Positions 36,584 through 57,188 of a stretch of DNA of 64,000 nucleotides are shown here, one piece after another. The stretch spans positions 67,236-131,235 of the forward strand of contig JAOAGR010000004.1 of assembly GCA_026415655.1 (NCBI GenBank), written 5' to 3'. The first letter of the stretch is position 1, and every line of letters begins with the position of its first letter. A program made the translations under genes and the position numbers. Source of the DNA: Candidatus Dojkabacteria bacterium (lineage in GTDB: Bacteria > Patescibacteriota > Dojkabacteria > JAOAGR01). The notes beneath the pieces were generated by a model. The model was not told the origin of the DNA and did not search any database. It saw nothing but the letters and a program-made list of their open reading frames with translations.

Positions 36584-36676
36584 GGAGAGATACCCAAGTG
36601 GCTGAAGGGGCGGGTTTGCTAAACCTGTAGTAGGGGGAAACCCCTAGCGAGGGTTCGAATCCCTCTCTCTCCGCCA
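36584..36676 (+). tRNA. tRNA-Ser, anticodon GCT, long variable arm, CCA encoded.
   Basis: Manual fold: GGAGAGA-TA-CCC-AAGTGGCTGAA-GGG-G-CGGGT-TTGCTAA-ACCTG-[TAGTAGGGGGAAACCCCTAGC]-GAGGG-TTCGAAT-CCCTC-TCTCTCC-G-CCA. Confidence 0.85.
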
Positions 36677-38113
36677 ATCGGAACGGGCTTTGTTTTGAGC
36701 GAGTATGTCAAAGGGTTCGATCCAGTCCCAATGCAGTTTTTTATCCATCAAAACAAAGTTCGAGCCGACAATATTCAAGAGTAACTTCCTATCCATACTA
36801 TCCCCTTCACTGAATGCCCAGAATGCCTGATTAGCGACAATTATCAGTCCTTCAAAATGTTCGACCCATTTGTTTTCGGCTTTTCTACATTCCTCCAGAT
36901 TTTCGACAGCTACTAATTCATCATTTTCAATTTCAATTCTTTTTTCTTCAAAAAGTACATCATCAATTTTCTGATCAGTAAAAAGATCTACAAGTTTACG
37001 TTTTCGTTCTTGGAGTTTTCTACGTTCATTCGTCCAGTATTCCAGAGTATGAGCATGAAGATCATATTCATTTTTATTACTTTCTTTCAAAGTTCTAAGC
37101 ATTAAATCTCTAACTTCATCATCTATGGAAATACTGTCTAGTGTGTCCTGAATTTGTTTCTCCAGATCTTCAGCTCTGATGTATTTTTGCTTACATGTCC
37201 CTTTCTTTTTTGTGCACCGATAATAAGTATGTCCTTTTTGATTCTCTGCAGTAATAGCACAGCCACATTCTCCACAGGTTAAAAGACCAGTGTATGCAAA
37301 ATCTTTTTTCTCTTTTTTGAACTCATCGGGCTTTCCATTGCTTTTGATAACTTTCTGAATTTGTAAAAATGTTCCCATGCTTATCATTCTGTGGTGGTTT
37401 CCTGGATATCTCTTACCGTTATAAACCATAATTCCTGCATAAAAAGGATTTGTAAGTATTCTTTGAACCGAACTTTTTGATAATTGTTTCCCTCGAATTC
37501 CTACTAATCCCCAGCTCTTTGCTAAATCAGATATCTCTTGAAGAGTATATTTCCCTAAAGCATATGTATCAAAAATTCTTTTAACCAGATCAAACTTTTC
37601 CGGATCTGGAAGTATCTTTTTATTTACAACATCGTTTTTGTATCCTAGCAATGCCCAAGTAGGCCATTCACCATTACGGAGTTTTTCTCTAATTCCTCTT
37701 TTAACGTTTTGACTCAGATTATCAACATAATACTTAGATTGGTTAAACGCCATTCCAAGAGTGAATTTTCCTTGAGGAGTATTGTCAGCCCAGTAAGTTG
37801 GAAATTTTAACTCTTTTAAAAGTCCCACGTCCATCAAGTAAATAATTTTACCTCCATCGACAGAATTTCTAGCGAGCCTGTCTGGATGCCATGCAATTAT
37901 TCCATCTGCTTCACCTTTTTCTATCGCCAAAAGCATACTATTAAAAATCTCCCTACCTGGTTCTTTTGCTGTTTTAGACTCATGGAGAATTTTATGGACA
38001 ATCAGCTTATTCGTTTTGGCATATTCAATTAGCTCAGTTTCCTGAGCTTTAATAGACTGGATTTGCCGATTGTCTTCGTCAGTAGATTTTCTGCAATAGA
38101 TAAAGTATTTCAT
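36644..38113 (-). CDS. Large serine recombinase (integrase): resolvase catalytic domain, recombinase domain, zinc ribbon and coiled coil.
   Basis: Catalytic-domain motifs AIYCRKSTDEDNRQ..SIKAQ and DGIIAWHPDRLARN. Zinc ribbon CGECGCAI...YYRCTKKKGTC. The 3' end overlaps tRNA-Ser by 33 nt. Confidence 0.85.
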   Translation of the reverse strand: MKYFIYCRKSTDEDNRQIQSIKAQETELIEYAKTNKLIVHKILHESKTAKEPGREIFNSMLLAIEKGEADGIIAWHPDRLARNSVDGGKIIYLMDVGLLKELKFPTYWADNTPQGKFTLGMAFNQSKYYVDNLSQNVKRGIREKLRNGEWPTWALLGYKNDVVNKKILPDPEKFDLVKRIFDTYALGKYTLQEISDLAKSWGLVGIRGKQLSKSSVQRILTNPFYAGIMVYNGKRYPGNHHRMISMGTFLQIQKVIKSNGKPDEFKKEKKDFAYTGLLTCGECGCAITAENQKGHTYYRCTKKKGTCKQKYIRAEDLEKQIQDTLDSISIDDEVRDLMLRTLKESNKNEYDLHAHTLEYWTNERRKLQERKRKLVDLFTDQKIDDVLFEEKRIEIENDELVAVENLEECRKAENKWVEHFEGLIIVANQAFWAFSEGDSMDRKLLLNIVGSNFVLMDKKLHWDWIEPFDILAQNKARSDWRRERDSNPR

Positions 38114-38115
38114 GT

Positions 38116-38763
38116 TTAGAAATAATCCTGAATAGTAATTTTTTTAATCATCTTCCCTACGACACGGAAATTTGGATCATTCACTTTAATAGGTTTGAAG
38201 TCCTCATTCGCTGGTTCAAGAATTACATAGTCACCTTTGCGAAAAAAGAATTTTAATGTTGCATTGCCGTCAAGCATAGCGACAACAATATCTTTATTAT
38301 TAACAATTGCGTGCGGATCAATCAGAATATAGTCACCGGGAAGTATTCCGGCATCTTTCATTGAAAGCCCGTCTGCCTGTAAGGCAAAGAGGTCTTTTTT
38401 CTTTGCAAGTCTCTCGTCATATGGGAGAGGAATAAACTTTTCGGATTTCTCGATTGCCTCTTTTGGCGTTCCGCACGGAACTTCTCCAAGTAGTGGAATC
38501 CTCATCATATTCATGAAAATATTATGCTCTTGTATCCCCATCTCCATCAGAGCAGCTTTCTGTTTTAGTTTTAAAAGCTCTTCCAGGTCTATTTCAAGAG
38601 CAGGAGCAAGTCTTTCAAGTGTTTCATCTTCAGGAAAAACCTTTCCGCTTTCAATATCAGAAATGTAGCCATTATTTTTCATTCCAAGTCTTCTTGCGAT
38701 TTCGGATTGGGAAAACCCTCTATTCAGACGTATTTCTTTAAATAAATCTCCAAATGTACTCAT
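38116..38763 (-). CDS. LexA/CI-like repressor: XRE-type HTH plus S24 autopeptidase domain.
   Basis: HTH segment FSQSEIARRLGMKNNGYISDIESGK. S24 motifs GLSMKDAGILPGDYILIDP (Ser) and GNATLKFF (Lys). Confidence 0.8.
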   Translation of the reverse strand: MSTFGDLFKEIRLNRGFSQSEIARRLGMKNNGYISDIESGKVFPEDETLERLAPALEIDLEELLKLKQKAALMEMGIQEHNIFMNMMRIPLLGEVPCGTPKEAIEKSEKFIPLPYDERLAKKKDLFALQADGLSMKDAGILPGDYILIDPHAIVNNKDIVVAMLDGNATLKFFFRKGDYVILEPANEDFKPIKVNDPNFRVVGKMIKKITIQDYF

Positions 38764-38785
38764 AATTAATATTCTTTATAGATTT

Positions 38786-38818
38786 TATAGTGTACTCGCT
38801 ATAGTGTCAACGCTATAT
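38786..38818. promoter_or_regulatory. Direct repeats TATAGTGTACTCGC / TATAGTGTCAACGC / TATA in the divergent CI-cro intergenic region. Candidate repressor operators.
   Basis: Read directly: tatagtgtactcgctatagtgtcaacgctatat, between the repressor start (38763) and the cro start (38943). Confidence 0.35.
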
Positions 38819-38942
38819 TTTAAATTTAATAAATTAGACTAAGTTATTGATAATAAAAGATAAATTAAAATCTTTATCCTAATCCTATTTAAAAATTTTT
38901 GCAAACATCTTAGAGAGGATATATATTCTGCACGATACCTAT

Positions 38943-39173
38943 ATGAGAAGTGCTATACCTCTAAAAATTCGCAATAAGCTCAGAGAAATCCGAGTAAAAA
39001 AGAAAATGACTCAGTCACAGGTTGCCTTCAAATGTGGGTTGGCTTTGAGTACTTATCAAAATATTGAAAAAGGCAAGTCTCAGCCCAGCTTGAAAACAGC
39101 CTTGCTGATTGCAAAAGCACTCGATTATCAGGTTGAAAAGCTATTTAGAGTCGAAATTTACCAGCATGACTAA
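38943..39173 (+). CDS. Cro/XRE-like small HTH regulator.
   Basis: KKKMTQSQVAFKCGLALSTYQNIEKGKSQPSLKTALLIAKAL is an HTH_3/XRE fold. Divergent from the S24 repressor. Confidence 0.75.
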   Translation: MRSAIPLKIRNKLREIRVKKKMTQSQVAFKCGLALSTYQNIEKGKSQPSLKTALLIAKALDYQVEKLFRVEIYQHD

Positions 39174-39369
39174 GAAAGAAATTATTCAAAAAGAAAAAGA
39201 ACGGAAAAAGTTTCTGGCTGATGTCAAAAGAGTTTTTGAGAAAAGATACGGTGAACCTTTATCTGATGAAAGAGTCGAAGCAATCGCCAAAAGACTAATG
39301 ATGTTCACTGCACTTTGTCACAATATTTATTCAAAACAGCAGGGAAAGGAACCAATGTACCAGCTATGA
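39166..39369 (+). CDS. Hypothetical small basic protein. The likely real start is the internal ATG forming ATGA-type coupling with cro (ATGACTAA).
   Basis: The track ORF is 39109..39369. Met20 lies at 39166 and overlaps the cro stop. Confidence 0.4.
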   Translation: MTKKEIIQKEKERKKFLADVKRVFEKRYGEPLSDERVEAIAKRLMMFTALCHNIYSKQQGKEPMYQL

Positions 39370-39767
39370 AAGAAATAGATCCAGTGATGGAATCAAAAAT
39401 CTTGAAACTTATCAAAGCAAGAATTGGAAAAAGTAATCCGATTCAAGTGAAAGATATTATGGAATTTGTAGCTCTTCCTGATCGTGAGATCAGACGCATT
39501 GTTCAACATTTAATAAACATCAAAGGTTATGCAATCGGCTCAACAACCAAAGATCCTCACGGTTTTTTCATGATAGTGAGTCTTGATGATTACCTTGAGG
39601 CAATAAAAAACTTGATGGGAAGAAAGGAAAAAATTCATGAAAGAATAGAAGCTTTGAAAAAAGCATGTAGAAAAAATGGTCTTGAAGTACCGGAAGTCAA
39701 AATTCACGAAACACAAGGTCAGACAAATTTTTATATTAAAAATTCAATTGTAATAAACCTCAAATGA
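39366..39767 (+). CDS. Hypothetical ICE protein, possibly a DNA-binding winged helix.
   Basis: The track ORF is 39315..39767. The Met at 39366 overlaps the upstream stop (ATGA). No confident family assignment. Confidence 0.4.
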   Translation: MKEIDPVMESKILKLIKARIGKSNPIQVKDIMEFVALPDREIRRIVQHLINIKGYAIGSTTKDPHGFFMIVSLDDYLEAIKNLMGRKEKIHERIEALKKACRKNGLEVPEVKIHETQGQTNFYIKNSIVINLK

Positions 39768-40132
39768 TAAATATCAATTTTAAAATTAAAGATCCTTCAA
39801 AAGCTATGGTGAACTATATTTTGAACTGCTCATCAAATGCAACCGAGGAAGAGCATAAACTTACTGTTTATATTTTATCTGTTCTTGCATCTCAGGGAAC
39901 AGACTCTTTCCTGATCTATATGAATGAACTTCTTTTTGGATTCGATTTCATAGAAACAGATCGGATAAGCAAACGATTCCTGCCTGTAGGGCTGAACAAG
40001 AAACAAATACTTTCAGCTATTTATCAGATTAATAAACGAGGGATTCTAAGTATCGAATTGCAGGATACAAGCGCTTACGCTTTTTACGTTTATATAAACA
40101 ATAACCAGGAATATGAAGTTGTTCGCAGATAA
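39764..40132 (+). CDS. Hypothetical ICE protein.
   Basis: 122-aa ORF, translationally coupled to its neighbours. Confidence 0.4.
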   Translation: MININFKIKDPSKAMVNYILNCSSNATEEEHKLTVYILSVLASQGTDSFLIYMNELLFGFDFIETDRISKRFLPVGLNKKQILSAIYQINKRGILSIELQDTSAYAFYVYINNNQEYEVVRR

Positions 40133-43100
40133 AATTAAATCAATTTTACTCATTGGAGTTCTTGTGCTGATTCCACTTTTATCAAGTGGAAAAGCAAGGG
40201 CGGATGAATTTTATATAAATGGAGGTCTTGCTGATGATTGCCATGTAGGTTTTACTACCTCAATTTCTTACGGAGCATTACCCGCTCAAAGTACAGGAAG
40301 TGGTGGAATAACTTATGATGCTGCACATATCAGAGGGGCTAGCGGAAATGGATACCCGGAAGCAACAAGATTTGCTCCTGATCTTGGAACTCTACTTTAT
40401 CCAAATGCAAGAAGATATCCAGATATTGCAACAGAAATTGTTGTACCTCCAAACAGCAGAGTGGATATTGGTTTTTATGACCATAACTATTCCGGTCATA
40501 ATACATGGCTTTATGATGCTTATCTTTTTCTTTCCAGAACGGATACAAATGCTGGAGATTTAGGGAGACTTGGTGCTGGTGGAAACTATGGAACTTTAAG
40601 CTGGAGAGAAACATCAGGAACAAAAAATAGAAGCGGAAGGTACGCAACGCTTCCTCTCAATTACAATGCTTTAACTGATTCTAATCCAAATTACAGCAAT
40701 CAAACAGGAAGAACTATTTATTCCTTCACAACAATCCAGCCGATTATTGTTCAAGGAAGAAACGTAACTCCAGAATTTACAGGAGGAGGCAATATGAGAT
40801 TAAGATATGATTTGACCGTCAGAAATCAATCCGCATATAGCCTTCCTAATGTAAGTGTATCGCAAAATCTTCCAAATGGACAAACTTTTTCATCGACATA
40901 TAACTTTGCACCATCAGAAACAAAAGTAATCACATATTTTGCAGACATGGGAACGAGTTATCCAACTCAAATTATTTCTGCCCAGGCAGAAATTTATGAT
41001 CCAAACTTTCATAAAGAAACAGCTTCAGTAAGTGCTAGTGGAGAAAGAGGTATTATTGTCAGAAGAGGCGATGCTGGCGCTCCTGCTAATTGGTCGGCAA
41101 ATCAGCCAGATTATATTGCTTCTGGGGATTATATTTCAGTAACATTAATCCCATATAGAACGTATTCTCAACAAAATACAACAACAGTTCCTCCTCAACT
41201 CTCGGTAATTAAAAGAGTTTCCGACTCTAATGAATCAAATGTTCAAACAAATACTGTAGAGCCAAATGAAGATTTTACTTATACCATAAGTGTTAGCAAT
41301 GCAGGTGGGATTGCAAATAATGTAAGAGTTACTGATGACTATGATCAAAATGACTTAACGATAGTAAGTACTAATCCAGTTGGTGTGGATAATGCAGATA
41401 TTATCACCTGGAACTTAGGAAATATGGTTAATGGGGAGACTAGAACTTTGACTATAAATGCCAGATCAAAGACTGGATTTGCTCATGGCACACATCAAGC
41501 TCCAAACAATGTTAGTGTGATAGCTGATAATCATAATCAGATTCAGGATAATACCCAAACAAATATTGTTGCTCAGGCAAATTTAATTATAGAAAAAACA
41601 GTAAGCGATTCTGATGAATCTAATGTAAAAAACAATAATTTGCAGGGAGACTCAAATGATTCAGCCAGAACTATCTCTTATAACATCAATGTCAGAAATA
41701 TTGGTACAGCAGACGCAACAAATGTTGTTGTTACTGATGATTATCAGGAAAATAGAATGACTATCATTAATGCTGATGGTGGAACATTAAATAATGGAGT
41801 TATTACTTGGAGTATTGGTACTTTAGCAATTGGAGAAAGTAGAACATTCACAGTTACAGCACTTTTAAATCAAGGACTTCCTGATTTAACACAAGTGTTA
41901 AATACAGCAACAGTAGATTCCAATGAAACAAACCCAATTAGTGATACAGCAACAACTCTTATTCATTCTCCTGTTATTCAAGTAGAAAAGAATTCTGATA
42001 AATCAGAATATCTTCCTGGAGAAACAGTTAAGTGGAGTATAACTGTTAGAAATGTTGGTACAGGAAACGCTTACAATGTAAAAGTCATTGATGATCTTCC
42101 AACAAATGGGATTAAAGAGATAAAAAATATTTCTGATGGAGGAATTTTCTCCAGCTCGAATAATCAAATCTACTGGGTAGCATCTACACCACATTTTATT
42201 TTGAATGGCTCTTATCAGCCGGATTCAAGTTCTACTTGGGGAAATGAAAAAACTCTTTCTTATGATACCGAGCTTATACAAGTTTTTGATGAGATTGAAA
42301 TCGATTTACTAAATAAAGTCAGAGTAGAAGACTCTGCAAGAGTTATTGAAGCCGAAAAAACCGTGAGAGTAAATTCTCCAAAATTAGATTTGATAAAAGA
42401 GCAAATCCTTCCGGAGTCTGTCACTCCCGGTCAACTGATCACCTACACTTTGAATTATAAAAACTCAGGATCAGGAGCTTCTATTGATACAAGAATTACC
42501 GACACTCTTCCAATTGAAGTCGATTTTGTAGATTTTTTGGATATAGAAGGAGTTTACAATAAAGATACACATACTATTGTATGGAATTTAGGGGATATTC
42601 AACCTGGAATTGAAGGAAAAGTATCATTCAGGGTAGTTATCAAAATTCCTACTCCAACTAATACTCGGATCAGGAATATTTCTTTAATTGAATCTCCAAT
42701 TACAAAACCTGTTGTTTCAGAGGTTATTACCGTCACAACAAATTCTTGTTGTATGGGAGGCATGGTATGGGACGATAATAATAAGAATGGGATTTTTGAT
42801 GAAGATGAGGATGGAATCCAAAATGCAAGAGTAACTTTAACATGGGATAAAACTGAATTTACTAAAAGTGATTCAGTGGAAATCTTAACTGATGAGACTG
42901 GTCATTATGAATATACTGGCTTGCCTTATTTTATTCCCATTACTGTAGAAATCATAAAACCTGCAGGCTTTGATGAATTAACTACCAAAACTACTTTCAG
43001 GCTTGTTCTTTTACCTCCAAATAAGGATGGAGTTATTGAAGATTATGAAAAAGATGGTATTCGCTATTTAACCGCTTCCGGTTGTATCAAATTCTTAAAT

Positions 43101-43366: not shown

Positions 43367-43708
43367 ATGAAAGAAAAAGTTATCAAAACAACAAAAAAAT
43401 TCAGTGCTATTTTCGCAACATTCCTTTTTACAACGCTTCTATTCAGTTCAACTGCTTTCGCAGCCACTGATCCAACATCAGAGATTTCAAATATTATTGA
43501 AAGAATCGTAAAAATTGTTACTCAAGTTGGTTCAGGAATTCTGATACTTTTTATCGTAAAGGATGCGTTTGAAATGCTTCAAAATAAAGATAATCCGGCT
43601 TATAGAAATATTCTTCTAAGGGATATTTTTATGCTTATCATTGCAGCTATCTTCTTATTTAAACCAGATTTTATTTTACAAGCAGTTAAATTTATAGCCA
43701 ATGTTTAA
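43367..43708 (+). CDS. Small pilin-like protein (signal peptide plus two hydrophobic helices), possibly VirB2/TrbC-like.
   Basis: 113 aa. Signal peptide FATFLFTTLLFSSTAFAA. Two hydrophobic stretches, SGILILFIV and FMLIIAAIFLF. Located at the head of the T4SS gene block. Confidence 0.4.
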   Translation: MKEKVIKTTKKFSAIFATFLFTTLLFSSTAFAATDPTSEISNIIERIVKIVTQVGSGILILFIVKDAFEMLQNKDNPAYRNILLRDIFMLIIAAIFLFKPDFILQAVKFIANV

Positions 43709-46149: not shown

Positions 46150-46151
46150 CC

Positions 46152-47984: not shown

Positions 47985-48645
47985 GGAAATAAAACCGAAT
48001 TTAATAGCAGGGTACTTCTTTCTATTTTTAATAATTACTTTTGTCTTTGGAGCTGGATTCCTGATTGAAAGTTATTTTAACGGGAATCTAAATAAATTTT
48101 TTCCAAAAGTAGAAGATCAAATTATTACTCAAAAGATAGAAGGAGAAGTCCAATTTCCTGTTAGTCCAACTGAGATTATTACTGTTACTCCGAGCCCGGA
48201 AGTAACTTCACTACCAACTCTATCAGCTCCCTCTTCTACTCCAATTCCTACAGCAACAGCTCAACCAACATCTGTCCCCACAACGAAGCCCCCTGTTGTC
48301 ATTACTACAACCAAACCTTTACCTACGGAAACTTCAAAGCCTCTTTCTTCTCTTAAATTGAGTTGTTCTATTACAAATACACAGCCAAAAGCAGGTCAAA
48401 ATGTCTCTGTAAATTGTTTTGCAAAAGATCAATCTGGAAATCCAGTTAATAACGTAATTTTGAAGCTTTCTATTGTATGGCAATCTGGCTCGCAAGTATT
48501 AAATATGCCTTCGAGCAATAGTTCTGGCACTTCACAAATTACAATTGTTGTTCCTGAAGGAAATAAGGGCATTGTAACGGCAAACATAACAGCAGAAAAA
48601 GACGGGCTTAAGGTAAATACGAATTTTACTTTAAATATTCAATAA
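47977..48645 (+). CDS. Membrane-anchored protein with a PT-rich linker and a C-terminal Ig-like beta domain. It sits where the VirB8/TcpC-like component is expected.
   Basis: N-terminal TM segment YFFLFLIITFVFGAGFLI. Linker TVTPSPEVTSLPTLSAPSSTPIPTATAQPTSVPTTKPPVVITTTKP. Confidence 0.45.
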   Translation: MPEEIKPNLIAGYFFLFLIITFVFGAGFLIESYFNGNLNKFFPKVEDQIITQKIEGEVQFPVSPTEIITVTPSPEVTSLPTLSAPSSTPIPTATAQPTSVPTTKPPVVITTTKPLPTETSKPLSSLKLSCSITNTQPKAGQNVSVNCFAKDQSGNPVNNVILKLSIVWQSGSQVLNMPSSNSSGTSQITIVVPEGNKGIVTANITAEKDGLKVNTNFTLNIQ

Positions 48646-48650
48646 ATCTT

Positions 48651-49718
48651 ATGGAAGAAAACCAATTATTAAATAAATCAAAAAACCTTGCTTCCAAAGC
48701 TGATGGACTGGCTGGAGATGCTCTTGCTATGGCTTCAAACAAAGTCGCCCCTGTTGCAGGTCCAATTCTGGTTCAACTTCTGTGGAAAAATAAAATAACA
48801 ATTACCTTGGTTATATTATCAATGATACTTTTAATGTGTTTTAGCTTTGAAAGCTTATCACTTCAAGCACTGGCAGGATCAAGAGGTCTGATAGAGCAAA
48901 TTTCTGCGACTCATAAAGAGTGTATTCAGAAAGCTAAAGAAAAACATAATATTGAGTTTGAGCTTTTAGCGTCATATGGGAAAGTAATTTCTGATTTTGA
49001 CGAAAAATATATAGGGACTGGCAAAGGGTTCTTGGAAATAACGGATGCTGATTGGGAAAAGTCATCAACTGATGGTGATGAGGACGGGGAAATTGAGGCA
49101 ACAAGTATCTGCGATAATTATTTTACTCTTGCAAATATTCTGTCTCAAATCCAAGGTGACAGTGAGAAAAAAATAGATGCTTATCCATACCAGAAAAAAG
49201 CGGAAGTTAAGGAATGGTACTTGATATACAAAGGCTTGATAATGATACCTTATGGAAATCCTGTTGGATTAATAAGGTCAGATCTTGTAACCGTTTCTTC
49301 GGGCTATAACGTAGTAAGAATTATTAATGGAAAAGAGAATGTTCATAGAGGTATTGATCTTGTTCCATCCGGAAAGTGGTATGAAGAAAATCCGGGGAAA
49401 ACCTCAAAAGATTCGATAGTAAATTCAATTATTTCGGGAGATCTTTCAAATACAGTTGATGACGCTGGTGCTTTATGTTCTACAGTTACAAATGAACTTT
49501 TTAAAGTTATTAACTGTCATTGTGATTCATTTATTGCTACTGATGGAGCAAAGGTTGTTTATGGATCTCCACTTTGTTTTATGGGAACAACTGGAAACTC
49601 CACAGGCGTGCATGTTCATGTTGAGATCTCTCAAAAGGACGAGAATGGCAAATGGCAGAGGATTGATCCAACTCCTCTTGTATTTCCAGTAAATAATTAT
49701 GCAGGACAAAACCAATGA
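48651..49718 (+). CDS. M23/LytM-family peptidoglycan endopeptidase with an N-terminal membrane anchor. Probably the T4SS cell-wall hydrolase (VirB1-equivalent, PrgK/TcpG-like).
   Basis: M23 motifs HRGIDL and GNSTGVHVHVEI. Confidence 0.75.
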   Translation: MEENQLLNKSKNLASKADGLAGDALAMASNKVAPVAGPILVQLLWKNKITITLVILSMILLMCFSFESLSLQALAGSRGLIEQISATHKECIQKAKEKHNIEFELLASYGKVISDFDEKYIGTGKGFLEITDADWEKSSTDGDEDGEIEATSICDNYFTLANILSQIQGDSEKKIDAYPYQKKAEVKEWYLIYKGLIMIPYGNPVGLIRSDLVTVSSGYNVVRIINGKENVHRGIDLVPSGKWYEENPGKTSKDSIVNSIISGDLSNTVDDAGALCSTVTNELFKVINCHCDSFIATDGAKVVYGSPLCFMGTTGNSTGVHVHVEISQKDENGKWQRIDPTPLVFPVNNYAGQNQ

Positions 49719-50490
49719 AAAAATTAAAATTCTGGATAAGTCTTTGCAACAGGGCTTTTCACAGATTCCAAGACCGGTACTTAAAGCCAAAGGACTTTCC
49801 AGAAATGCAAAATGTCTTTATGGGCTTTTGCTTGATTATGCCTGGCAAAGCGGAAGTTGCTTTCCTGGACAAAAAAGATTGGCAGAAGATCTGGATGTAT
49901 CAGAGCGAAGTATTCAGAGAGATCTTGAAGAACTTCGGGACTTTGGGCTTATCAAGTGGATTAGACGTGGTTATCAAATGACAAATGAATATCAGATTTT
50001 ATCTTTGGATTTTTTACTTCAATCAGATATGTCAAAAACGTCAGATCAAGAGGTGACAGATCTGGCTTCTCAAGAGATGACAGATACGTCGCACAAAGAA
50101 TATAACGTTGAAAATACCCAGAATAAAAATACTCAGTCGTCAACGTTGGAAACGAAAACGAATAATTTAAATCTTTTTGACAAGGAAGCAGTTGAACTTG
50201 CAACAGAATTAAACGATCTCAAAAGCATTCGGTTTTATCAGAAAATAATTAATCAAAGAAATAAAGGGGAAATCGCAATTGAAGATTTTAATACCGCTCT
50301 TGAAGATACACGAAGAGTTAAAAGATGTGATGAAGTCGATGGTACAAACTTTTTAAAAAATCCTGCTGGTTGGTTTGTTTCTGTTTTACAGAAACTCACC
50401 AGACGAAGACAGGACAAACTCCGGCAGGAAGAAGTTAAAACCAAGATGGATGAATTGAAAAATAAGTTTTTAGGAAAAGCAAAACTATGA
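49699..50490 (+). CDS. HTH_36-type winged-helix protein, replication-initiator/DnaD-like, of mobile elements.
   Basis: FSQIPRPVLKAKGLSRNAKCLYGLLLDYAWQSGSCFPGQKRLAEDLDVSERSIQRDLEELRDFGLIKW. Confidence 0.5.
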   Translation: MQDKTNEKIKILDKSLQQGFSQIPRPVLKAKGLSRNAKCLYGLLLDYAWQSGSCFPGQKRLAEDLDVSERSIQRDLEELRDFGLIKWIRRGYQMTNEYQILSLDFLLQSDMSKTSDQEVTDLASQEMTDTSHKEYNVENTQNKNTQSSTLETKTNNLNLFDKEAVELATELNDLKSIRFYQKIINQRNKGEIAIEDFNTALEDTRRVKRCDEVDGTNFLKNPAGWFVSVLQKLTRRRQDKLRQEEVKTKMDELKNKFLGKAKL

Positions 50491-53075
50491 GTCAGGAGTT
50501 AATAGAAAATTTAATAAAGTTTGCATTCATTTCTTTGAGCATAAGTTTAATTTTTACACTAAACTATTTTCGCAAATTATATTTTGCAAAAGTCAGAGCA
50601 AAAAAAGAAAAAGGATTTCTGATACAGATTATTCCACCCAAATACCAACTGGAAGATGCGGATCAAAGAGGAGTGCGTTTTGCTCTACAACGATTTATCG
50701 ATAATTTAACAGCAAGCGTAAAAGATTCCCGAATCTCTTTAGAAATTTTTGCTGATAATTCGGAGATTAACTTTCTGGTATGGACACCTAGTAAAAAGAT
50801 CGCTGAACTGGTTAAGCTTAATTTATACAGTACTTACAATGACCGAATAAAAATTAAGGACGTAGAAACTGATCCAATCAATTCTTTTTCCGTTGATTCT
50901 GTTGTGAACGAATATAAAACCTCCAAGCATGATATTTACATGCTTATGGATCTTAAAGACTTTGAATCTGTAGATCCAGTCCAAGATATTTTGGGAGCAA
51001 TGAGGGGACTTCAAAATGACGATAAGCTTTTATTCCAAATTACAATTAAGCCATCAAAACTTGACGTAATTGCATTACAAAAAGCAAAAGAGAATTTCCG
51101 ACTCCGTAGATCAGAAATAACCTGGCTGGAATTATTCCTGCAAAAAATCAGTTCGTATTTGATTTATTTTGTGCCACTTTTACCAATTTTTATTATAAAA
51201 ATATTTGGTGGAATTCTAGCTTTTTTTAAAGGAGGAAATATAAACCAAGATCCAATCTTTTTGCTTCCTGATAGTGATCCAAGGAAAGTACTTGTTGAGA
51301 AAGAAGAGTTAAGTAACTTTAACAGCCGAATATCAGAAAAATATAAAACTTCATTTTCTACGAATATTAGAGTTATTGCTGAGGGTGAAAGAAAGGACAT
51401 TTTGCTTGATGGATTTGAGCAAGCTCTCGAATCCATGAAATCAGAAACTCAAAACAGACTTATCCGTAAACATAAAAGCAATTCCTTTGATTTGCGAACC
51501 CGGCTTGTTTATCCAGAAGATTCCCTTTTCCCTTTTTACAAAGAACTTTGCACTTCTCAAAATACACTTTACTCAAGGGAAATTTCTATGATCTACCATG
51601 TGCCTTTTAAGATTGATGATCCGGTGATAACAAGCTTTGCCTCTCCTGACCTGCCAGCAAAAAAACTTTTTAAAGATAAAGTTAATATTTCTGATCTTTA
51701 TATTGGAATTAACAAATCCAGAAATATTGAATCAAATGTTTTTTTAAGTGAAGAGAATCGTAAAAGACATATTGTAATAAACGGTCAAACCGGAACAGGA
51801 AAATCCACCATTATGAAAAACTTTGTTTTGCAGGATATTGATGAAAACTTGATTGGACAAAATAAGCGAGGTTTAATGCTGATGGACCCGCATGAAGATT
51901 TCTTTATTGATATTTTAGAAAGACTGCCAGAAACGGAAATGAATTTAGAAAAGTTTATTGCCTGGGATACAACAAGCGAGGAATATTATTTTGGATTTAA
52001 TCCACTTTATGCAGTAGGGCTTACAGAACGGGAAATTGACTTAATTGTTGACTCGAATTTTAAACTGATAGAAAAAGTAATCCGCAGGATTAATCCAGAA
52101 TCAGGAATGGGTATGACCGGAAAGCCAATGCTGATAAATGCCATGAAAACCCTTATGGTTTTTCAAAATGAATGGCTGGAGAAAGTTGGAAATACAGATG
52201 CAAACGTAGAAATTATCAAGAAACATGCACCAACACTTCTTGATGTACGTAGTTTATTTATCAGTGACGAAGAATGCTCGACAATTCTATCTTTTATTCC
52301 ACTGGAAAAATATGAAGGACTCAGGACTTTCTGGGAAGATATTCTGCCCAATTACAAAGAATCACAAAATTGGTCAGAAATCAGACAAGGTTTTGATAAC
52401 AAAATTTCTCAAATTCTTACTGGTATTTTGTTTTTCACATTTGCTCAAAGTCAAAGCTCGATAGAAATATCAGAAATTATTCGGGAGTCAAAAATACTGC
52501 TTGTAAATTTGTCATCTAAAAATATTGGTGAAGAAGGTATGGGACTTCTTGGATCACTTCTTATGTCAAAGGTCTGGTTTGAGGCAAAAAAGATAGAAAA
52601 AAGTAAACGTAATCCATTTGTTGTTTATGCTGATGAATTTCAGAATTTTGCTAACAGTGATTTTGCCAGTGCATTATCTGAAGCAAGAAAATTTAAACTT
52701 GAACTTATACTTGCTCATCAATTCTTTCAGCAACTTCCCGAAGAAGTCTTTCACGCAGTTATGGGTAATGTAAAAACAAAAATTTATTACAGATGTGGAC
52801 TTGAGGATAGCGAAATGATTGCAAAAGAATTGCAGGGAAGACTTCTTCAAAATGAAGTCATGGAGATTCCGGAATTTCATGCAAATATTAAAGTCGGTGA
52901 GGATGTGTTTTCTGTCTATGTCCCTGTGGAAAGGAAACCAACAAAGAGTGAAATTGCAGTCCAAAAAATAGTCGAAGATTCGTATAAAAAATATGGGCGA
53001 ACAAGGCTTTCTGTAGAACAAAATATCATCAATAGAAGGAACTGGTTCAGGGACGGATGTGAGCCATACGGGTAA
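50487..53075 (+). CDS. Type IV coupling protein (VirD4/TraG/TcpA-like ATPase) with an N-terminal membrane region.
   Basis: N-terminal TM helices. Walker A INGQTGTGKSTIMKN. Walker B FVVYADEFQNFAN. 862 aa. Confidence 0.7.
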   Translation: MSQELIENLIKFAFISLSISLIFTLNYFRKLYFAKVRAKKEKGFLIQIIPPKYQLEDADQRGVRFALQRFIDNLTASVKDSRISLEIFADNSEINFLVWTPSKKIAELVKLNLYSTYNDRIKIKDVETDPINSFSVDSVVNEYKTSKHDIYMLMDLKDFESVDPVQDILGAMRGLQNDDKLLFQITIKPSKLDVIALQKAKENFRLRRSEITWLELFLQKISSYLIYFVPLLPIFIIKIFGGILAFFKGGNINQDPIFLLPDSDPRKVLVEKEELSNFNSRISEKYKTSFSTNIRVIAEGERKDILLDGFEQALESMKSETQNRLIRKHKSNSFDLRTRLVYPEDSLFPFYKELCTSQNTLYSREISMIYHVPFKIDDPVITSFASPDLPAKKLFKDKVNISDLYIGINKSRNIESNVFLSEENRKRHIVINGQTGTGKSTIMKNFVLQDIDENLIGQNKRGLMLMDPHEDFFIDILERLPETEMNLEKFIAWDTTSEEYYFGFNPLYAVGLTEREIDLIVDSNFKLIEKVIRRINPESGMGMTGKPMLINAMKTLMVFQNEWLEKVGNTDANVEIIKKHAPTLLDVRSLFISDEECSTILSFIPLEKYEGLRTFWEDILPNYKESQNWSEIRQGFDNKISQILTGILFFTFAQSQSSIEISEIIRESKILLVNLSSKNIGEEGMGLLGSLLMSKVWFEAKKIEKSKRNPFVVYADEFQNFANSDFASALSEARKFKLELILAHQFFQQLPEEVFHAVMGNVKTKIYYRCGLEDSEMIAKELQGRLLQNEVMEIPEFHANIKVGEDVFSVYVPVERKPTKSEIAVQKIVEDSYKKYGRTRLSVEQNIINRRNWFRDGCEPYG

Positions 53076-53113
53076 TTATTGTACTAGAACAGTTATCCAG
53101 TAAATAGCTCTTA

Positions 53114-53289
53114 AAAAACTTAACCTCTTATCTTATTTTTCTCATCCCCTTGCGATCCCTGCTCTCGTCATTTTGTGAGTGGGTGGACTTTCACGAAAGC
53201 CCACCCACTCACTTCCTCGACCATGGATTTGATGTGTATATTTAACACATACAAACGGGGGATGAGATATGGGGGGAGGTTAAGTTTTT
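53114..53289. repeat. Nested inverted repeats in the T4CP/Replic_Relax intergenic region, an oriT candidate. Outer pair AAAAACTTAACCTC / GAGGTTAAGTTTTT. Middle pair TCTCATCCCC / GGGGATGAGA. Core 38-nt GC-rich hairpin GTGAGTGGGTGG-A-CTTTC-AC-GAAAG-C-CCACCCACTCAC at 53175..53212.
   Basis: Read directly. The core hairpin is not followed by a T-tract, so it is not a canonical terminator. GC-rich in an AT-rich context. Confidence 0.5.
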
Positions 53290-53307
53290 AGGGTAATTAA
53301 TATAAAT

Positions 53308-54192
53308 ATGAAAAAAATAAGATTAAATAAAAATCAGATAGAGGTATTAAAAATTATTCAGAGTTTTAGGTATATTCCAATGAAGGTATTGATGAAGATT
53401 GTATTTGAGAGGGAAGTTTATGGGCATTTATCGGGACTGAGTAGAGGACTTCATAGATTGGAATATTCTGGATTAATAAAAAGTTTTTTATACGGTAATA
53501 ATTGGAAAGTAGTTTTTATCACGAAAAAAGGAGCAGAAAGCTTAGCTCTGGAATCAGGAATTCCAATTAAAGATATTTCCATTCCAAATCTAAGCCACAA
53601 AGTAGGTTTTGCCACTCTTGAGCATACAGTAAAAATAGCCAACCTTTATCTCGAACTCGCAATGGAAATACCCGCATTTCCAGATTTCTCACTAATAGAA
53701 TGGCTAGGAGATCAACAGGTATTTTTGCAGTACAAATTCCGTTCAGTAAGAAATGGAAAAACAATAAAAAGAAATCTGGCACCGGATTCTTTTTTCCTGC
53801 TTCAAAAGGATGGAGTCAATAAACCTTACTTTCTTGAATACGATACCGGTACTATGGACAGGGAACAGCTTGTACAAAAATTCCTGCGGTACTTTGAATA
53901 CTTTGTTTACGGGGAGTGGAGAGAAAAGTTCGGGACTTTTCCTTCAATTCTTTTCTTGACGGAAAGAAAAGAACAATCAATGCAAAAGTATTTGCAGGAG
54001 CCGGAAATTCCTTTGGAAAAAGCTCTTGCTCTAAGATCCAAATTTTCTGACTCCTCAAATATTGTCTGGAAGGCAATAGGCATGTCAGAAAATATTAAAA
54101 GCATAAATTCCAAAGAAATTTATGACTTTTTAAAAACTCAAATTATTTTTAATTATACAAATCAATCATGGACAAAAGAATTATTAAAATAA
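53308..54192 (+). CDS. Replic_Relax (replication-relaxation) family-like protein with an N-terminal winged helix. Candidate ICE relaxase or mobilisation protein.
   Basis: LNKNQIEVLKIIQSFRYIPMKVLMKIVFEREVYGHLSGLSRGLHRLEYSGLIKSF. Size and N-terminal wHTH are consistent with PF13814. Assignment from memory only. Confidence 0.45.
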   Translation: MKKIRLNKNQIEVLKIIQSFRYIPMKVLMKIVFEREVYGHLSGLSRGLHRLEYSGLIKSFLYGNNWKVVFITKKGAESLALESGIPIKDISIPNLSHKVGFATLEHTVKIANLYLELAMEIPAFPDFSLIEWLGDQQVFLQYKFRSVRNGKTIKRNLAPDSFFLLQKDGVNKPYFLEYDTGTMDREQLVQKFLRYFEYFVYGEWREKFGTFPSILFLTERKEQSMQKYLQEPEIPLEKALALRSKFSDSSNIVWKAIGMSENIKSINSKEIYDFLKTQIIFNYTNQSWTKELLK

Positions 54193-54743
54193 TATTTGCT
54201 CTGATCTCATGTATCTTTATCGTGATTGGAGTTTATTTAGCTTACAACGTTTTTTACCCTGAGATTTATTATCAGAAAAACCTTAAAAACAACATTACAC
54301 CTCCCCCCATTACAGAAAGCGAATCACCAAGCTCAGTATCTACCCCAGCCCTGGATCAGGAAAATATTCCTGATCGATTGATAATTCCCAAAATAGGTGT
54401 GGATATGGAGTTAGGAACTGATCCAAAGACATTAGATAAAGCAGGGTGGGTGCAAAACCTCTATCCTGATAATTCTGTAATGGTTATTGCAGCCCACAGG
54501 TTCGGCTGGATAGGCATGCCTAATGACCGGAAAGTAACTCATACTCTTTATAATATTAATAAGCTGGTAATTGGGGATGAGGTGATTATCCAATGGAATG
54601 GAGAGAGGAAGATTTATAAGATTAAAGATATAACTGAGGCTACAAATAACCCTTCTATAAAAGACGGTGAGGTTTTGATTTATACTTGTAAGTCTTTAGA
54701 TTCGGAATTAAGAATCTTTTTAAATTTAGAATATGTATTATAA
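54168..54743 (+). CDS. Sortase (N-terminal TM anchor; catalytic His, Cys and Arg region).
   Basis: LIIPKIGVD, VIAAHR (His), and LIYTCKS (TLxTC-type Cys). 191 aa. Confidence 0.7.
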   Translation: MDKRIIKIIFALISCIFIVIGVYLAYNVFYPEIYYQKNLKNNITPPPITESESPSSVSTPALDQENIPDRLIIPKIGVDMELGTDPKTLDKAGWVQNLYPDNSVMVIAAHRFGWIGMPNDRKVTHTLYNINKLVIGDEVIIQWNGERKIYKIKDITEATNNPSIKDGEVLIYTCKSLDSELRIFLNLEYVL

Positions 54744-57165: not shown

Positions 57166-57188
57166 CCCATATAGGTATTTAAATTATA

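What the first reader, a model, noticed from the sequence alone, without database searches (positions are those of the whole stretch)
36584..54743. Integrative conjugative element at tRNA-Ser, with a phage-type SOS switch and a complete monoderm-type T4SS
The element begins at the 3' end of tRNA-Ser(GCT). Its gene order is:
- A large serine recombinase whose C-terminus overlaps the tRNA.
- A LexA/CI-like S24 autopeptidase repressor divergent from a Cro-like gene. RecA-dependent autocleavage would make transfer SOS-inducible.
- Three small coupled ORFs.
- A sortase-substrate adhesin, a VirB2-like pilin candidate and a VirB6-like protein.
- A VirB3-like gene plus the VirB4 ATPase, a VirB8-position Ig-like protein and an M23 cell-wall hydrolase.
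- An HTH_36 replication-initiator-like protein and a VirD4 coupling ATPase.
- A structured inverted-repeat region, then a Replic_Relax protein and a sortase.
This is the minimal Gram-positive-type conjugation set (VirB1-like, B3, B4, B6, B8-like, D4) plus integrase, regulator, relaxase candidate and adhesin. That makes it a self-contained ICE in what otherwise looks like a reduced, AT-rich, CPR-like genome. Few or no characterised ICEs exist in such lineages. Serine integrases exchange over a 2-bp core, so no long direct repeats are expected; the right end is therefore undefined, and the downstream copper module may be cargo.
Basis: partly seen in the sequence, partly recalled or inferred. Interest (0 to 1): 0.85.

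Follow-up and report, generated by a model that had tools for sequence, protein, structure and literature searches.

The report
Conjugative element in a CPR bacterium
A Candidatus Dojkabacteria (CPR) genome carries, just after a tRNA-Ser gene, an inserted element with every gene class needed for conjugative self-transfer plus copper-resistance cargo, which is notable because CPR secretion systems of this type are generally thought not to be conjugative.

Summary

**Gene calls.** HMM, profile and fold evidence confirm:
- a large serine recombinase
- an HTH+S24 repressor divergent from a Cro-like gene
- a surface adhesin, a VirB2-type pilin and a VirB6-like protein
- a strongly matching VirB4 and an M23 hydrolase
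- an HTH_36 protein
- a divergent T4CP, recognised only through a wider profile and a fold search
- a Replic_Relax protein, which equals the MOBC relaxase family
- a sortase

**Evidence for mobility.**
- A sister genome has the same epimerase, Na/H exchanger and tRNA-Ser synteny but no element. Homology stops exactly at window 36677.
- An 84%-identical copy from other metagenomes starts at the same junction.
- All backbone genes are under purifying selection.
- A hairpin between the T4CP and the relaxase is conserved across six elements and is a strong oriT candidate.

**Correction.** 54743 is not the element's end. In relatives the backbone resumes after a variable cargo slot with DUF2958. 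That right arm is not in the window, so the copper module is most likely cargo and attR lies beyond 64000.

Excision and transfer are untested. I rate this a new variant of a known kind, moderately to highly interesting.

The parts
36584..36676 (+). tRNA-Ser(GCT), the integration target (host side of attL). It is intact and identical to the sister genome's copy.
   Evidence: ARAGORN, Rfam, and comparison with L007.
36677..36678 (.). Left junction. Homology to the empty-site sister genome ends after ..CTCCGCCAA. Element-specific sequence starts with TCGGAACGGGC. The true 2-bp crossover is at this point or 5' of it.
   Evidence: blastn of L007 against the window ends at 36677. The L001 and L091 contigs begin with the 31-mer that ends in the first element-specific base.
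36644..38113 (-). Large serine recombinase (integrase) with Ser10 in YCRKST. Its tail RRERDSNPR is read from the tRNA complement.
   Evidence: Pfam Resolvase, Recombinase and Zn_ribbon_recom; NCBIfam XisF/Ccr-like; translation.
38116..38763 (-). HTH_3 + Peptidase_S24 repressor (LexA/CI/SetR type). It has a VPC-G cleavage-site-like motif, Ser in GLSM and Lys in TLKF.
   Evidence: Pfam 89.9 bits; residues conserved in the window, L001 and L006.
38764..38942 (.). Divergent promoter/operator region. TATAGTGT direct repeats overlap a TTGACA-17-TAAAAT promoter on the minus strand.
   Evidence: The promoter scan is not above shuffles; the repeats are read from the sequence.
38943..39173 (+). Cro-like HTH_3 protein, first gene of the rightward operon.
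   Evidence: Pfam 59.7 bits.
39109..40132 (+). Three small coupled ORFs (86/67 aa, 150 aa, 122 aa) of unknown function. Homologs of the 150-aa ORF were found in all five full-length relatives, of the 86-aa and 122-aa ORFs only in L001 and L006.
40113..43232 (+). Surface adhesin with a signal peptide, DUF11 x4 and SdrD_B domains, and a C-terminal sorting signal IADTG + TM + basic tail.
   Evidence: Pfam. The motif [IL]A[DQ]TG is conserved in six elements.
43367..43708 (+). VirB2/TrbC-type pilin with a signal peptide and two TM helices.
   Evidence: Pfam T4SS_pilin 33.1 and TrbC 31.6 bits; topology; 59-100% identical in relatives.
43701..45425 (+). VirB6/TrbL-like polytopic membrane protein (6 TM).
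   Evidence: Weak TrbL hit, MMCAP2_0566 family, TM scan.
45346..46149 (+). VirB3/PrgI/TcpE-like 2-TM protein with a cytoplasmic domain, directly upstream of VirB4.
   Evidence: Weak TcpE hit, TM scan, and position equivalent to PrgI+TraC-like in a core CPR T4SS.
46152..47984 (+). VirB4 ATPase.
   Evidence: NCBIfam VirB4_plasma 1.3e-85, conju_CD1110 6.9e-85, TraC and VirB4_CagE; Pfam P-loop_TraG and AAA_10.
47977..48645 (+). Bitopic membrane protein with a PT-rich linker and an Ig-like domain, in the VirB8 position.
   Evidence: Weak Big_1/MG2 hits; TM scan.
48651..49718 (+). Membrane-anchored M23 peptidoglycan hydrolase (VirB1 role) with HRGID and HVHVE motifs.
   Evidence: Pfam 24.7 bits, below the cut-off; motifs; M23 is called in relatives.
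49699..50490 (+). HTH_36 (RepA_N-like) DNA-binding protein, a candidate relaxosome accessory or replication protein.
   Evidence: Pfam 47.8 bits; faint RepA_N in relatives.
50487..53075 (+). Type IV coupling protein-like ATPase. It has an N-terminal TM, a roughly 380-aa N-domain, Walker A GQTGTGKST, Walker B VVYADE and an all-alpha insertion.
   Evidence: Direct hits fall below cut-offs. The 33-sequence profile hits TrwB 2e-10 and DotL 1e-7. Homolog P0177 passes TrwB_AAD_bind and T4SS-DNA_transf. The AF2 model has pLDDT 85.9, and Foldseek finds TrwB with TM 0.60-0.66.
53175..53221 (+). oriT candidate core: the hairpin GTGAGTGGGTGG..CCACCCACTCAC followed by TTCCTCGAC, nested inside larger inverted repeats (53116-53290).
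   Evidence: DNA fold z = -7.9. The hairpin and tail are near-invariant in six elements whose proteins are 43-63% identical, and stem pairs show compensatory changes.
53308..54192 (+). MOBC-family (Replic_Relax, PD-(D/E)XK-type) relaxase candidate with an N-terminal wHTH-like region.
   Evidence: Pfam PF13814 56.9 bits; invariant E105, H106, D160, E177, D179; PF13814 equals MobC.
54168..54743 (+). Membrane-anchored sortase. This is the last gene of the left backbone block.
   Evidence: Pfam 25.2 bits, just below the cut-off. HRF, YTCK and R.F are conserved in six elements. Colinearity with L001 ends at 54719.
54744..64000 (+). Probable cargo in the sortase/DUF2958 slot. It holds two P-type Cu/heavy-metal ATPases, a cupredoxin, CsoR, two HMA chaperones, DUF305, DsbD_2 and a membrane ORF that runs off the window. 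GC is 0.362.
   Evidence: Pfam; GC; slot defined from L091, L002, L003 and L006; absent from the sister genome.

Best explanation
This is an integrative and conjugative element of a Candidatus Dojkabacteria (CPR/Patescibacteria) chromosome. It sits immediately after tRNA-Ser(GCT). It is at least 27.3 kb long, running from 36678 to beyond 64000.

**Proposed working (inferred unless marked shown)**
1. The HTH+S24 repressor keeps the rightward operon off. Self-cleavage at the conserved VPC-G site, probably RecA-stimulated, would derepress it.
2. The large serine recombinase would excise the element at the tRNA-Ser junction. The recombinase itself, the precise left junction and the empty site in a sister genome are shown.
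3. The MOBC-type relaxase, perhaps with the HTH_36 protein, would act at the conserved hairpin between the T4CP and relaxase genes. The conservation of that hairpin is shown.
4. The T4CP-like ATPase would hand the DNA to a monoderm-type channel made of VirB4, VirB3-like, VirB6-like, the Ig-like bitopic protein and the M23 hydrolase.
5. A VirB2-type pilin and a sortase-anchored adhesin would make cell contact.

**Layout.** Genes 36644-54743 are the conserved left backbone. The copper/heavy-metal module (54.9 to 64 kb and beyond) occupies the family's variable cargo slot. The DUF2958 right arm and attR lie outside the window.
For: **Gene set.** Confirmed by HMMs and profiles.

**Empty site.** L007 is 83% nt identical over 3.6 kb of left flank. 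It has the same epimerase, Na/H exchanger and tRNA-Ser, followed by Mfd, GH18 and prepilin peptidase. None of the element is there, and homology stops at window 36677.

**Composition.** GC is 0.297 on the left, 0.346 in the backbone and 0.362 in the cargo. The sister genome's downstream region is 0.276.

**Independent copies**
- L001 and L091 are colinear with the window at 84% nt over 18.1 kb. Both contigs begin at the same junction k-mer, and both carry different cargo after the sortase.
- The same backbone occurs in L002, L003, L005 and L006. A serine-recombinase gene or remnant lies at the left end in L003, L005 and L006; the L002 locus does not reach that far.
- In those relatives the cargo after the sortase is typical of conjugative elements: DUF2958, an ArdC-N/M78 protein, orphan methylases and R-M genes.

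**Cargo slot.** DUF2958 and the next ORF follow the sortase directly in L002 and L006. In L091 they follow 9 kb of cargo.

**Selection.** dN/dS is 0.02-0.16 for ten backbone genes between the window and L001.

**oriT candidate.** The hairpin is conserved, with compensatory changes.

**Contrast with the core CPR system.** The nearest other VirB4 clade is 34% identical. It sits among housekeeping genes with no T4CP, relaxase or integrase within 10 kb on either side.
Against: - No excised form, attP or attR has been seen, and the right end is outside the window.
- The direct Pfam and NCBIfam scores of the T4CP are below their cut-offs. Its fold also matches VirB4 and HerA.
- The relaxase has no tblastn match in 72,556 plasmids and no PDB relative. 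Its assignment rests on one Pfam model.
- The M23 and sortase HMM scores are just under their cut-offs.
- Published work argues that most CPR T4SSs are not conjugative (PMC12102498).
- In L091, no displaced tRNA-Ser fragment or recognisable att repeat marks the end.
- The copper module has no counterpart in any related element, so 'cargo' rests on position and GC.
Confidence: 0.72

Rival explanations
1. The element ends just after the sortase, at about 54720-54900, as the finding's coordinates imply. The copper module would then be a separate island or ordinary flanking DNA of this strain.
For: - Colinearity with the closest copy stops at 54719.
- The copper genes have no homologs in any related element.
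- The copper ATPases are singletons in the protein collection.
Against: - The last 60 nt before 54719 are not specially conserved. The first 120 nt at attL are about 99% identical.
- In L091, L002, L003 and L006 the backbone continues after the sortase with DUF2958.
- The sister genome has no copper module after tRNA-Ser.
- GC stays raised to the window end.
- No integrase or transposase lies between 54.7 and 64 kb.
Confidence: 0.13
2. It is an integrated island whose T4SS is used for epibiotic host interaction or secretion rather than DNA transfer, or it is an ICE that can no longer move.
For: - CPR T4SSs with VirB2 pilins are reported as essential for epibiotic growth and mostly relaxase-less (PMC12102498, PMC12857230).
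- The pilin plus adhesin could serve attachment.
- In L003 the recombinase looks decayed.
Against: - The integrase, T4CP, MOBC relaxase, conserved oriT-like hairpin, phage-type repressor and anti-restriction-type cargo are linked across the family.
- All of the backbone genes tested are under purifying selection.
- The element is absent from the sister genome.
- The core CPR T4SS has a different context and only 34% VirB4 identity.
Confidence: 0.12
3. It is an assembly or binning artefact: a foreign conjugative element joined to a CPR contig at a tRNA.
For: - The source is a MAG.
- tRNA genes are common chimera points.
- Some family members carry non-CPR labels such as Micrarchaeota and Delongbacteria.
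Against: - Independent assemblies from two other samples join the same tRNA-Ser 3' end to the same recombinase end.
- The family sits inside 1.09-Mb CPR genomes.
- The window continues 9 kb past the backbone on one contig.
Confidence: 0.03

Closest known systems
Gram-positive (MPF_FATA-type) conjugative elements, for example the CD1110/CTn2-type ICEs of Clostridioides and Bacillota plasmids
   Same: - VirB4 is closest to the CD1110 and Mycoplasma-ICE VirB4 families.
- It is 25-28% identical to Bacillota plasmid VirB4s.
- The gene set is the minimal monoderm one: VirB1-like hydrolase, B3, B4, B6, a bitopic B8-position protein and a T4CP. No outer-membrane core was detected. A surface adhesin is present.
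   Different: - Scores fall below the equivalog cut-offs.
- It carries a VirB2/TrbC pilin, which Gram-positive systems normally lack (PMC12857230).
- The hydrolase is M23 rather than lytic transglycosylase/CHAP.
- The T4CP has a long extra N-domain.
pAD1 TraX and other MOBC relaxase systems
   Same: - The relaxase candidate matches PF13814, which is MOBC, a PD-(D/E)XK-type family.
- It has an N-terminal wHTH-like region.
- The gene lies next to a T4CP gene, with a large inverted repeat between them.
   Different: - There is no detectable tblastn similarity to any plasmid MOBC.
- The nick site and binding repeats are unknown.
- The pAD1 oriT layout is recalled from the review text and was not tested here.
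Core Patescibacteria T4SS (Southlakia epibionticum type; Quinonero-Coronel et al. 2025)
   Same: - The host phylum is the same.
- It uses a VirB2-like pilin with monoderm-type components.
- Its VirB4 is nearer to CPR VirB4s (about 34%) than to Bacillota ones (about 27%).
   Different: - The core system is flanked by housekeeping genes with no T4CP, relaxase or integrase within 10 kb (PMC12102498).
- This one is an insertion with all of those, and with an adhesin, which that paper did not detect in CPR.
SXT/R391 SetR and phage CI/LexA switches; ICEBs1 ImmR/ImmA
   Same: - An HTH+S24 repressor is divergent from a Cro-like gene at the element's edge next to the integrase.
- Relatives use an HTH + M78 (ImmA-like) pair instead.
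   Different: - Autocleavage and RecA dependence are untested.
- The putative scissile bond is Cys-Gly, as in UmuD (from my own knowledge), rather than Ala-Gly.
Serine-recombinase-driven elements (Tn5397 TndX, Tn4451 TnpX, SCCmec Ccr, fdxN XisF)
   Same: - It has the three-domain large serine recombinase architecture.
- Best NCBIfam hits are XisF and CcrB/C/A.
- It lies at the element's end, with no long direct repeats.
   Different: - It targets the 3' end of a tRNA gene, and its ORF runs into the tRNA.
- A whole clade of CPR relatives does the same at tRNA-Ser, tRNA-Gln and tRNA-Glu.
- tRNA targeting by LSRs is rare but is reported for a few tycheposons.

Membership tests
Integrative and conjugative element (ICE) | Site-specific recombinase at an end of the insertion | tested here: met
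   Resolvase, Recombinase and Zn_ribbon_recom domains with Ser10 present, abutting the junction.
Integrative and conjugative element (ICE) | Insertion absent from the same locus in a related genome (empty site) | tested here: met
   L007 has the same left synteny and an identical tRNA-Ser. Homology ends at 36677 and there are no element genes within 10 kb.
Integrative and conjugative element (ICE) | Both attachment junctions (attL and attR) defined | tested here: inconclusive
   Only attL was found. The window holds no tRNA fragment, no sister downstream sequence and no DUF2958 arm.
Integrative and conjugative element (ICE) | VirB4-family ATPase | tested here: met
   E 1e-85 to two VirB4 NCBIfam models, and Pfam P-loop_TraG and AAA_10 above cut-off.
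Integrative and conjugative element (ICE) | Type IV coupling protein | tested here: met
   Direct HMM scores are below cut-off. The profile of 33 homologs hits TrwB 2e-10 and DotL 1e-7. Homolog P0177 passes PF10412 and PF02534. The fold matches TrwB with TM 0.60-0.66.
Integrative and conjugative element (ICE) | Relaxase | tested here: met
   PF13814 at 56.9 bits against a cut-off of 25.3. The family is equated with MOBC. Activity was not tested.
Integrative and conjugative element (ICE) | oriT | tested here: inconclusive
   A conserved hairpin with compensatory changes lies next to the relaxase gene. No nick site is known.
Integrative and conjugative element (ICE) | Excision to a circle and transfer to a recipient | not testable with these tools
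   No reads were available. The only indirect sign is that contigs from two samples break at the junction k-mer.
MPF_FATA class T4SS | VirB4 groups with FATA VirB4s | tested here: inconclusive
   Best models are CD1110 (285.8 bits against a cut-off of 325) and Mbov_0397 (287.8 against 590). No phylogeny was run.
MPF_FATA class T4SS | No VirB2-type pilin; contact made by surface adhesins | tested here: not met
   A pilin gene passes the T4SS_pilin and TrbC cut-offs. An adhesin is also present.
MOBC relaxases (Replic_Relax, PD-(D/E)XK) | Match to the family model, with conserved acidic and His residues | tested here: met
   Pfam hit. E105, H106, D160, E177 and D179 are invariant in six members.
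MOBC relaxases (Replic_Relax, PD-(D/E)XK) | Site-specific nicking at oriT | not testable with these tools
   This needs biochemistry.
Large serine recombinases | Resolvase catalytic domain with the nucleophilic Ser, plus recombinase and zinc-ribbon domains | tested here: met
LexA/CI/SetR-type autocleaving repressors | N-terminal HTH plus an S24 domain with a Ser-Lys dyad and a cleavage-site motif | tested here: met
   Pfam. VPCG, GLSM and TLKF are conserved in three elements.
LexA/CI/SetR-type autocleaving repressors | RecA-stimulated self-cleavage that derepresses transfer genes | not testable with these tools
   This is an inference only.
Core (non-conjugative) Patescibacteria T4SS | Chromosomal housekeeping context with no relaxase, T4CP or integrase nearby | tested here: not met
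   All three are present here. The core-type locus L094 lacks them, and its VirB4 is 34% identical.
Sortase and cell-wall-sorted substrate | Sortase His/Cys/Arg triad, and a substrate with LPXTG-like motif + TM + basic tail | tested here: inconclusive
   The sortase scores 25.2 bits against a cut-off of 26.6. The triad is conserved. The substrate motif is [IL]A[DQ]TG, not LPXTG.

The most novel reading that the evidence does not exclude
This is a working, self-transmissible ICE family native to CPR bacteria. It would conjugate through a pilus-bearing monoderm T4SS, use a very divergent MOBC relaxase, and integrate with a clade of serine recombinases specialised on tRNA 3' ends. It would move adaptive cargo, here copper resistance, between ultra-small epibionts, or between an epibiont and its host. 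If so, the pilus-bearing, monoderm-type machinery found in CPR bacteria would also be used for conjugation. The recombinase with its att site, and the oriT with its relaxase, could become genetic tools for uncultivated CPR lineages.
Probability: 0.5. Interest if true: 0.75.

Novelty: new variant of a known kind. Interest (0 to 1): 0.62.

Why it matters
**Context in the literature.** The most recent survey of 3,035 Patescibacteria genomes concluded that their T4SS is chromosomal, mostly relaxase-less and probably repurposed. [quoted passage not shown] Mobile elements of CPR bacteria are barely described.

**What this locus adds**
- It gives a concrete case that can be delimited: a complete conjugation gene set tied to an integrase, a precise junction and an empty site.
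- It belongs to a family represented by about 80 VirB4 clusters in public metagenomes.
- It turns 'do CPR bacteria conjugate?' into a testable question.

**What it suggests**
- A route by which reduced genomes could acquire metal resistance.
- Parts that could be useful for genetics in these organisms: the tRNA-targeting serine integrase, the oriT, the relaxase and the repressor.

Tried and rejected
**Searches for the right end**
- Second copy of the tRNA-Ser 3' end in the window and in L091: none found.
- The sister genome's sequence downstream of tRNA-Ser in the window, by pattern and by sensitive blastn: none found.
- Long terminal direct or inverted repeats within 36.4-55.2 kb: only chance-level pairs.
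- A resemblance between the element's left-end arm and L091 19128-19162: its score does not exceed shuffled controls, so I dropped it.
- Displaced tRNA copies within 10 kb of 18 related recombinases: none found.

**Attempts to read beyond the window**
- Looking up window proteins: the source MAG is not in the gene-position index.
- Viral-contig scans for the junction and for the relaxase: nothing found.

**Protein assignments**
- T4CP with a 6-sequence profile against the PDB: only Walker-A-level hits. The 33-sequence profile was needed.
- Relaxase against the PDB and against plasmids: no informative hits.
- PADLOC and Rfam added nothing.

**A claim I decided not to make.** I considered arguing for spread between CPR classes from the source labels. 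I rejected it because the labels are inconsistent. L002 'Dojkabacteria' and L003 'Nomurabacteria' are near-identical in genome size and carry near-identical elements. L007 'Saccharibacteria' is 83% nt identical to the window's left flank.

Full report
**What is at the coordinates**

ARAGORN and Rfam place tRNA-Ser(GCT) at 36584-36676 on the + strand. Pfam and NCBIfam confirm the following:

| Coordinates | Call |
|---|---|
| 36644-38113(-) | Three-domain large serine recombinase (LSR) |
| 38116-38763(-) | HTH_3 + Peptidase_S24 repressor |
| 38943-39173 | Divergent HTH_3 (Cro-like) gene |
| 40113-43232 | DUF11/SdrD_B surface protein |
| 43367-43708 | T4SS_pilin/TrbC pilin |
| 43701-45425 | Weak TrbL-like six-TM protein |
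| 46152-47984 | VirB4 (E 1e-85 to the Mycoplasma-ICE and CD1110 VirB4 families) |
| 48651-49718 | M23 peptidase |
| 49699-50490 | HTH_36 protein |
| 53308-54192 | Replic_Relax protein |
| 54168-54743 | Sortase |

- The M23 and sortase HMM scores are just under their cut-offs. Their catalytic motifs are present and conserved in relatives.
- The recombinase carries the nucleophilic Ser in YCRKST. Its last 11 codons are read from the complement of the tRNA T-arm and acceptor stem.
- The S24 repressor keeps a VPC-G site, Ser in GLSM and Lys in TLKF in three elements.
- Downstream, 54902-63422 encodes two P-type metal ATPases, a cupredoxin, CsoR, two HMA proteins, DUF305 and DsbD_2.
- The source is an NCBI MAG labelled Candidatus Dojkabacteria, on a 202,918-bp contig. 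The genes there carry only generic names.

**The weak point: the coupling protein**

The 862-aa ATPase gave only P-loop-level hits to TraD, TrwB and CD1115, all below cut-offs. A six-sequence family profile did no better against the PDB. A homology search then changed the picture.
- Beyond the close family (50-91% identity), there are relatives at 23-31% identity that carry TrwB_AAD_bind, T4SS-DNA_transf and TraG-D_C.
- One of them, P0177, matches 89% of the query and passes the Pfam cut-offs for TrwB_AAD_bind and T4SS-DNA_transf.
- A 33-sequence profile puts the two solved coupling proteins first: TrwB at 2e-10 and DotL at 1e-7, ahead of HerA.
- An AlphaFold model (pLDDT 85.9) superposes on TrwB with target TM 0.60-0.66. 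It has an all-helical insertion in the ATPase domain.
- The fold also matches VirB4, HerA and DndH. Structure alone therefore does not separate these families.

I accept it as a divergent T4CP with an extra N-terminal domain of about 380 aa.

**The relaxase and oriT**

- PF13814 (Replic_Relax) is the Pfam equivalent of the CONJscan MobC family (PMC5357655).
- This family comprises the PD-(D/E)XK-type relaxases, typified by pAD1 TraX (PMC3424549; PMC12857230).
- Six family members share invariant E105, H106, D160, E177 and D179.
- The protein has no tblastn match in the plasmid collection and no PDB relative. It is a very divergent member.
- The 232-nt spacer between the T4CP and this gene folds far better than shuffles (z = -7.9).
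- Within the spacer, the hairpin GTGAGTGGGTGG..CCACCCACTCAC and the following TTCCTCGAC are almost invariant across six elements. Their flanking proteins are only 43-63% identical (97% and 91% in the closest copy, L001), and several stem pairs show compensatory changes.

That is what an oriT looks like, but no nick site is known.

**Is it mobile?**

*Empty site.* A scan of species-representative genomes with the flanking Na/H exchanger found a sister contig, L007 (CAZDBO010000005.1, 88% aa identity).
- It has the same epimerase, Na/H exchanger and tRNA-Ser(GCT) order.
- After the tRNA it carries Mfd, a GH18 enzyme and prepilin peptidase, at GC 0.25-0.33.
- It has no recombinase, T4SS or copper genes there.
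- blastn homology with the window runs 33098-36677 at 83% and stops exactly after ..CTCCGCCAA.

*Independent copies.* VirB4 has about 80 relatives at 65-93% identity, followed by a gap down to 34%.
- The closest copy (L001 and L091, from two Logan samples) is colinear with window 36648-54719 at 84% nt.
- Both contigs start with the 31-mer whose last base is the first element-specific base.
- That is the expected break point if another sequence in those samples shares the tRNA end but continues differently. This inference assumes k = 31 assembly, which I take from my own knowledge.

*Selection.* Ten backbone genes have dN/dS of 0.02-0.16 between the two copies, at dS of about 0.2-1.4.

*Family architecture.* L002, L003, L005 and L006 share the same backbone.
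- A serine-recombinase gene lies at the left end in L005 and L006, and an uncalled recombinase-like remnant in L003; the L002 locus does not reach that far.
- The recombinases are of at least two types: 71-80% or about 27% identical to the window's.
- The switch is either S24-type or HTH + M78 (ImmA-like).

*Contrast.* The 34% VirB4 clade represents the ordinary CPR system. It sits among tRNA synthetase, RecG and endonuclease III genes with PrgI and TraC-like neighbours. It has no T4CP, relaxase or integrase within 10 kb on either side.

**Where does the element end?**

54743 is not the end.
- The stretch before the loss of colinearity is not specially conserved. The first 120 nt at the left end are about 99% identical.
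- In L002 and L006 the sortase is followed within a few hundred bases by DUF2958 and a conserved ORF. In L003 about 1.9 kb intervenes.
- In L091 the same DUF2958 pair (70% and 55% aa identity) comes after 9 kb of unrelated genes: NT5C, DHO_dh, CYTH, HAD, Ham1, NUDIX, HNH and GDSL.
- The family therefore has a variable cargo slot between the sortase and DUF2958.
- In the window that slot holds the copper module. The DUF2958 arm, any tRNA-Ser fragment and the sister's downstream sequence are all absent up to 64000.
- GC stays raised: 0.362 against 0.297 on the left.

I conclude that the insertion is at least 27.3 kb long and runs off the window. The copper genes have no counterpart in any relative, so 'cargo' rests on position, composition and the empty site.

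**The crossover**

- The window and the sister genome diverge at 36677|36678.
- The recombinase ORF ends 33 nt inside the tRNA. That would be natural if the element carried its own copy of the tRNA end.
- In that case a displaced copy should sit at attR. None is seen in L091 between the sortase and the next tRNA.
- L091 shows tRNA-Asn overlapped by a second, unrelated serine recombinase directly after the element's right arm.
- A look-alike of the left arm at that position did not beat shuffled controls.

The crossover position therefore stays open.

**A wider pattern**

I examined 75 metagenomic relatives of the recombinase (37-47% identity) whose C-terminus is on the contig.
- 13 abut tRNA-Ser, with four different anticodons.
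- 23 abut tRNA-Gln and 1 abuts tRNA-Glu.
- All are convergent with the tRNA. In 27 of the 37 the alignment ends exactly 30 nt inside the tRNA; the other 10 end at its 3' edge (0-3 nt).
- Seven more contigs stop within 120 nt of the gene.
- Most of these loci lack the T4SS backbone.

This looks like a tRNA-targeting recombinase clade used by several kinds of CPR element.

**Comparison with what is known**

- The architecture is that of a Gram-positive-type ICE.
- The switch resembles SetR/CI, or ImmR/ImmA in relatives.
- The relaxase is MOBC.
- The integrase is a large serine recombinase, as in Tn5397, Tn4451 or SCCmec.
- Three features are unusual: the VirB2-type pilin in a monoderm conjugation set, the dedicated sortase with an [IL]A[DQ]TG-sorted adhesin, and the tRNA target of a serine integrase.
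- The 2025 survey of CPR T4SSs found relaxases in only 103 of 3,035 genomes. Of those relaxases, 58 were MOBC, and only 15 were near virB4. That paper did not analyse integrases or ICE boundaries.
- I found no paper describing a delimited CPR ICE.

**Verdict**

- The ICE interpretation is supported at the level that sequence can support.
- The boundary is corrected.
- Excision, nicking, repressor cleavage and transfer remain untested.
- I rate it a new variant of a known kind, with interest about 0.6.

Noticed in passing
L011-L076 (metagenome loci), e.g. L011 4160-4249, L037 11492-11565: A clade of large serine recombinases, 37-47% identical to the window's, lies convergent to tRNA-Ser (13 loci), tRNA-Gln (23) or tRNA-Glu (1). 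In 27 of the 37 loci the ORF alignment ends exactly 30 nt inside the tRNA 3' end (0-3 nt from the tRNA edge in the other 10), so DSNP is read from the T-loop complement. Most of these loci lack the T4SS backbone.
   Followed up: partly
L091 19171-20543: Directly after the related element's right arm lies tRNA-Asn(GTT). A second serine recombinase (29% identity) on the opposite strand overlaps it. This looks like a neighbouring, separate integrated element.
   Followed up: partly
L002 287-1252; L003 1244-2205: In these relatives the S24 repressor is replaced by an HTH_3 protein plus a small protein with a weak M78 (ImmA/IrrE-like) match. The regulatory module has been swapped within the family.
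   Followed up: partly
window 53308-54192 and 43367-43708, compared with L001: Divergence between the two closest copies is mosaic. dS is about 0.6-1.4 for most genes but 0.195 for the relaxase gene, and the pilin is 100% identical. This suggests recent recombination of some modules.
   Followed up: no
L002, L003, L007 (record titles): Source labels disagree with the sequences. 'Dojkabacteria' CP129477.1 (1,090,595 bp) and 'Nomurabacteria' JACKFP010000001.1 (1,090,961 bp) carry near-identical elements. The 'Saccharibacteria' contig L007 is 83% nt identical to the window's left flank.
   Followed up: no
window 3000-7000, next to tRNA-Gly at 7633-7706: This is a very AT-rich stretch (GC 0.20-0.22) with four ORFs (132-308 aa). 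None has a Pfam or PADLOC match.
   Followed up: partly
window 38787-38822: Direct repeats of TATAGTGT (two full copies and one partial copy, 14-nt spacing) overlap the -35 of the best promoter-like site for the repressor gene. They are candidate operators.
   Followed up: no
window 43100-43232, and the adhesin C-termini of L001-L006: The adhesins end in a conserved FLNAG.YRD..[IL]A[DQ]TG motif, followed by a TM helix and a basic tail. This is a non-LPXTG sorting signal paired with the element's own sortase.
   Followed up: partly
L003 54-1061: A recombinase-like tblastn match (27% identity) has no called gene over it. The integrase of this copy may be decayed.
   Followed up: no
window 63425-64000: A hydrophobic ORF starts right after the DsbD_2 gene and runs off the end of the window. 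It was not identified.
   Followed up: no
L093 15308-22715: The cargo and right arm of the L006 element carry two N6_N4 methyltransferases, a GmrSD_N fragment and a 1370-aa HTH+NB-ARC (STAND-like) protein. The element is therefore more than 30 kb long and defence-rich.
   Followed up: no
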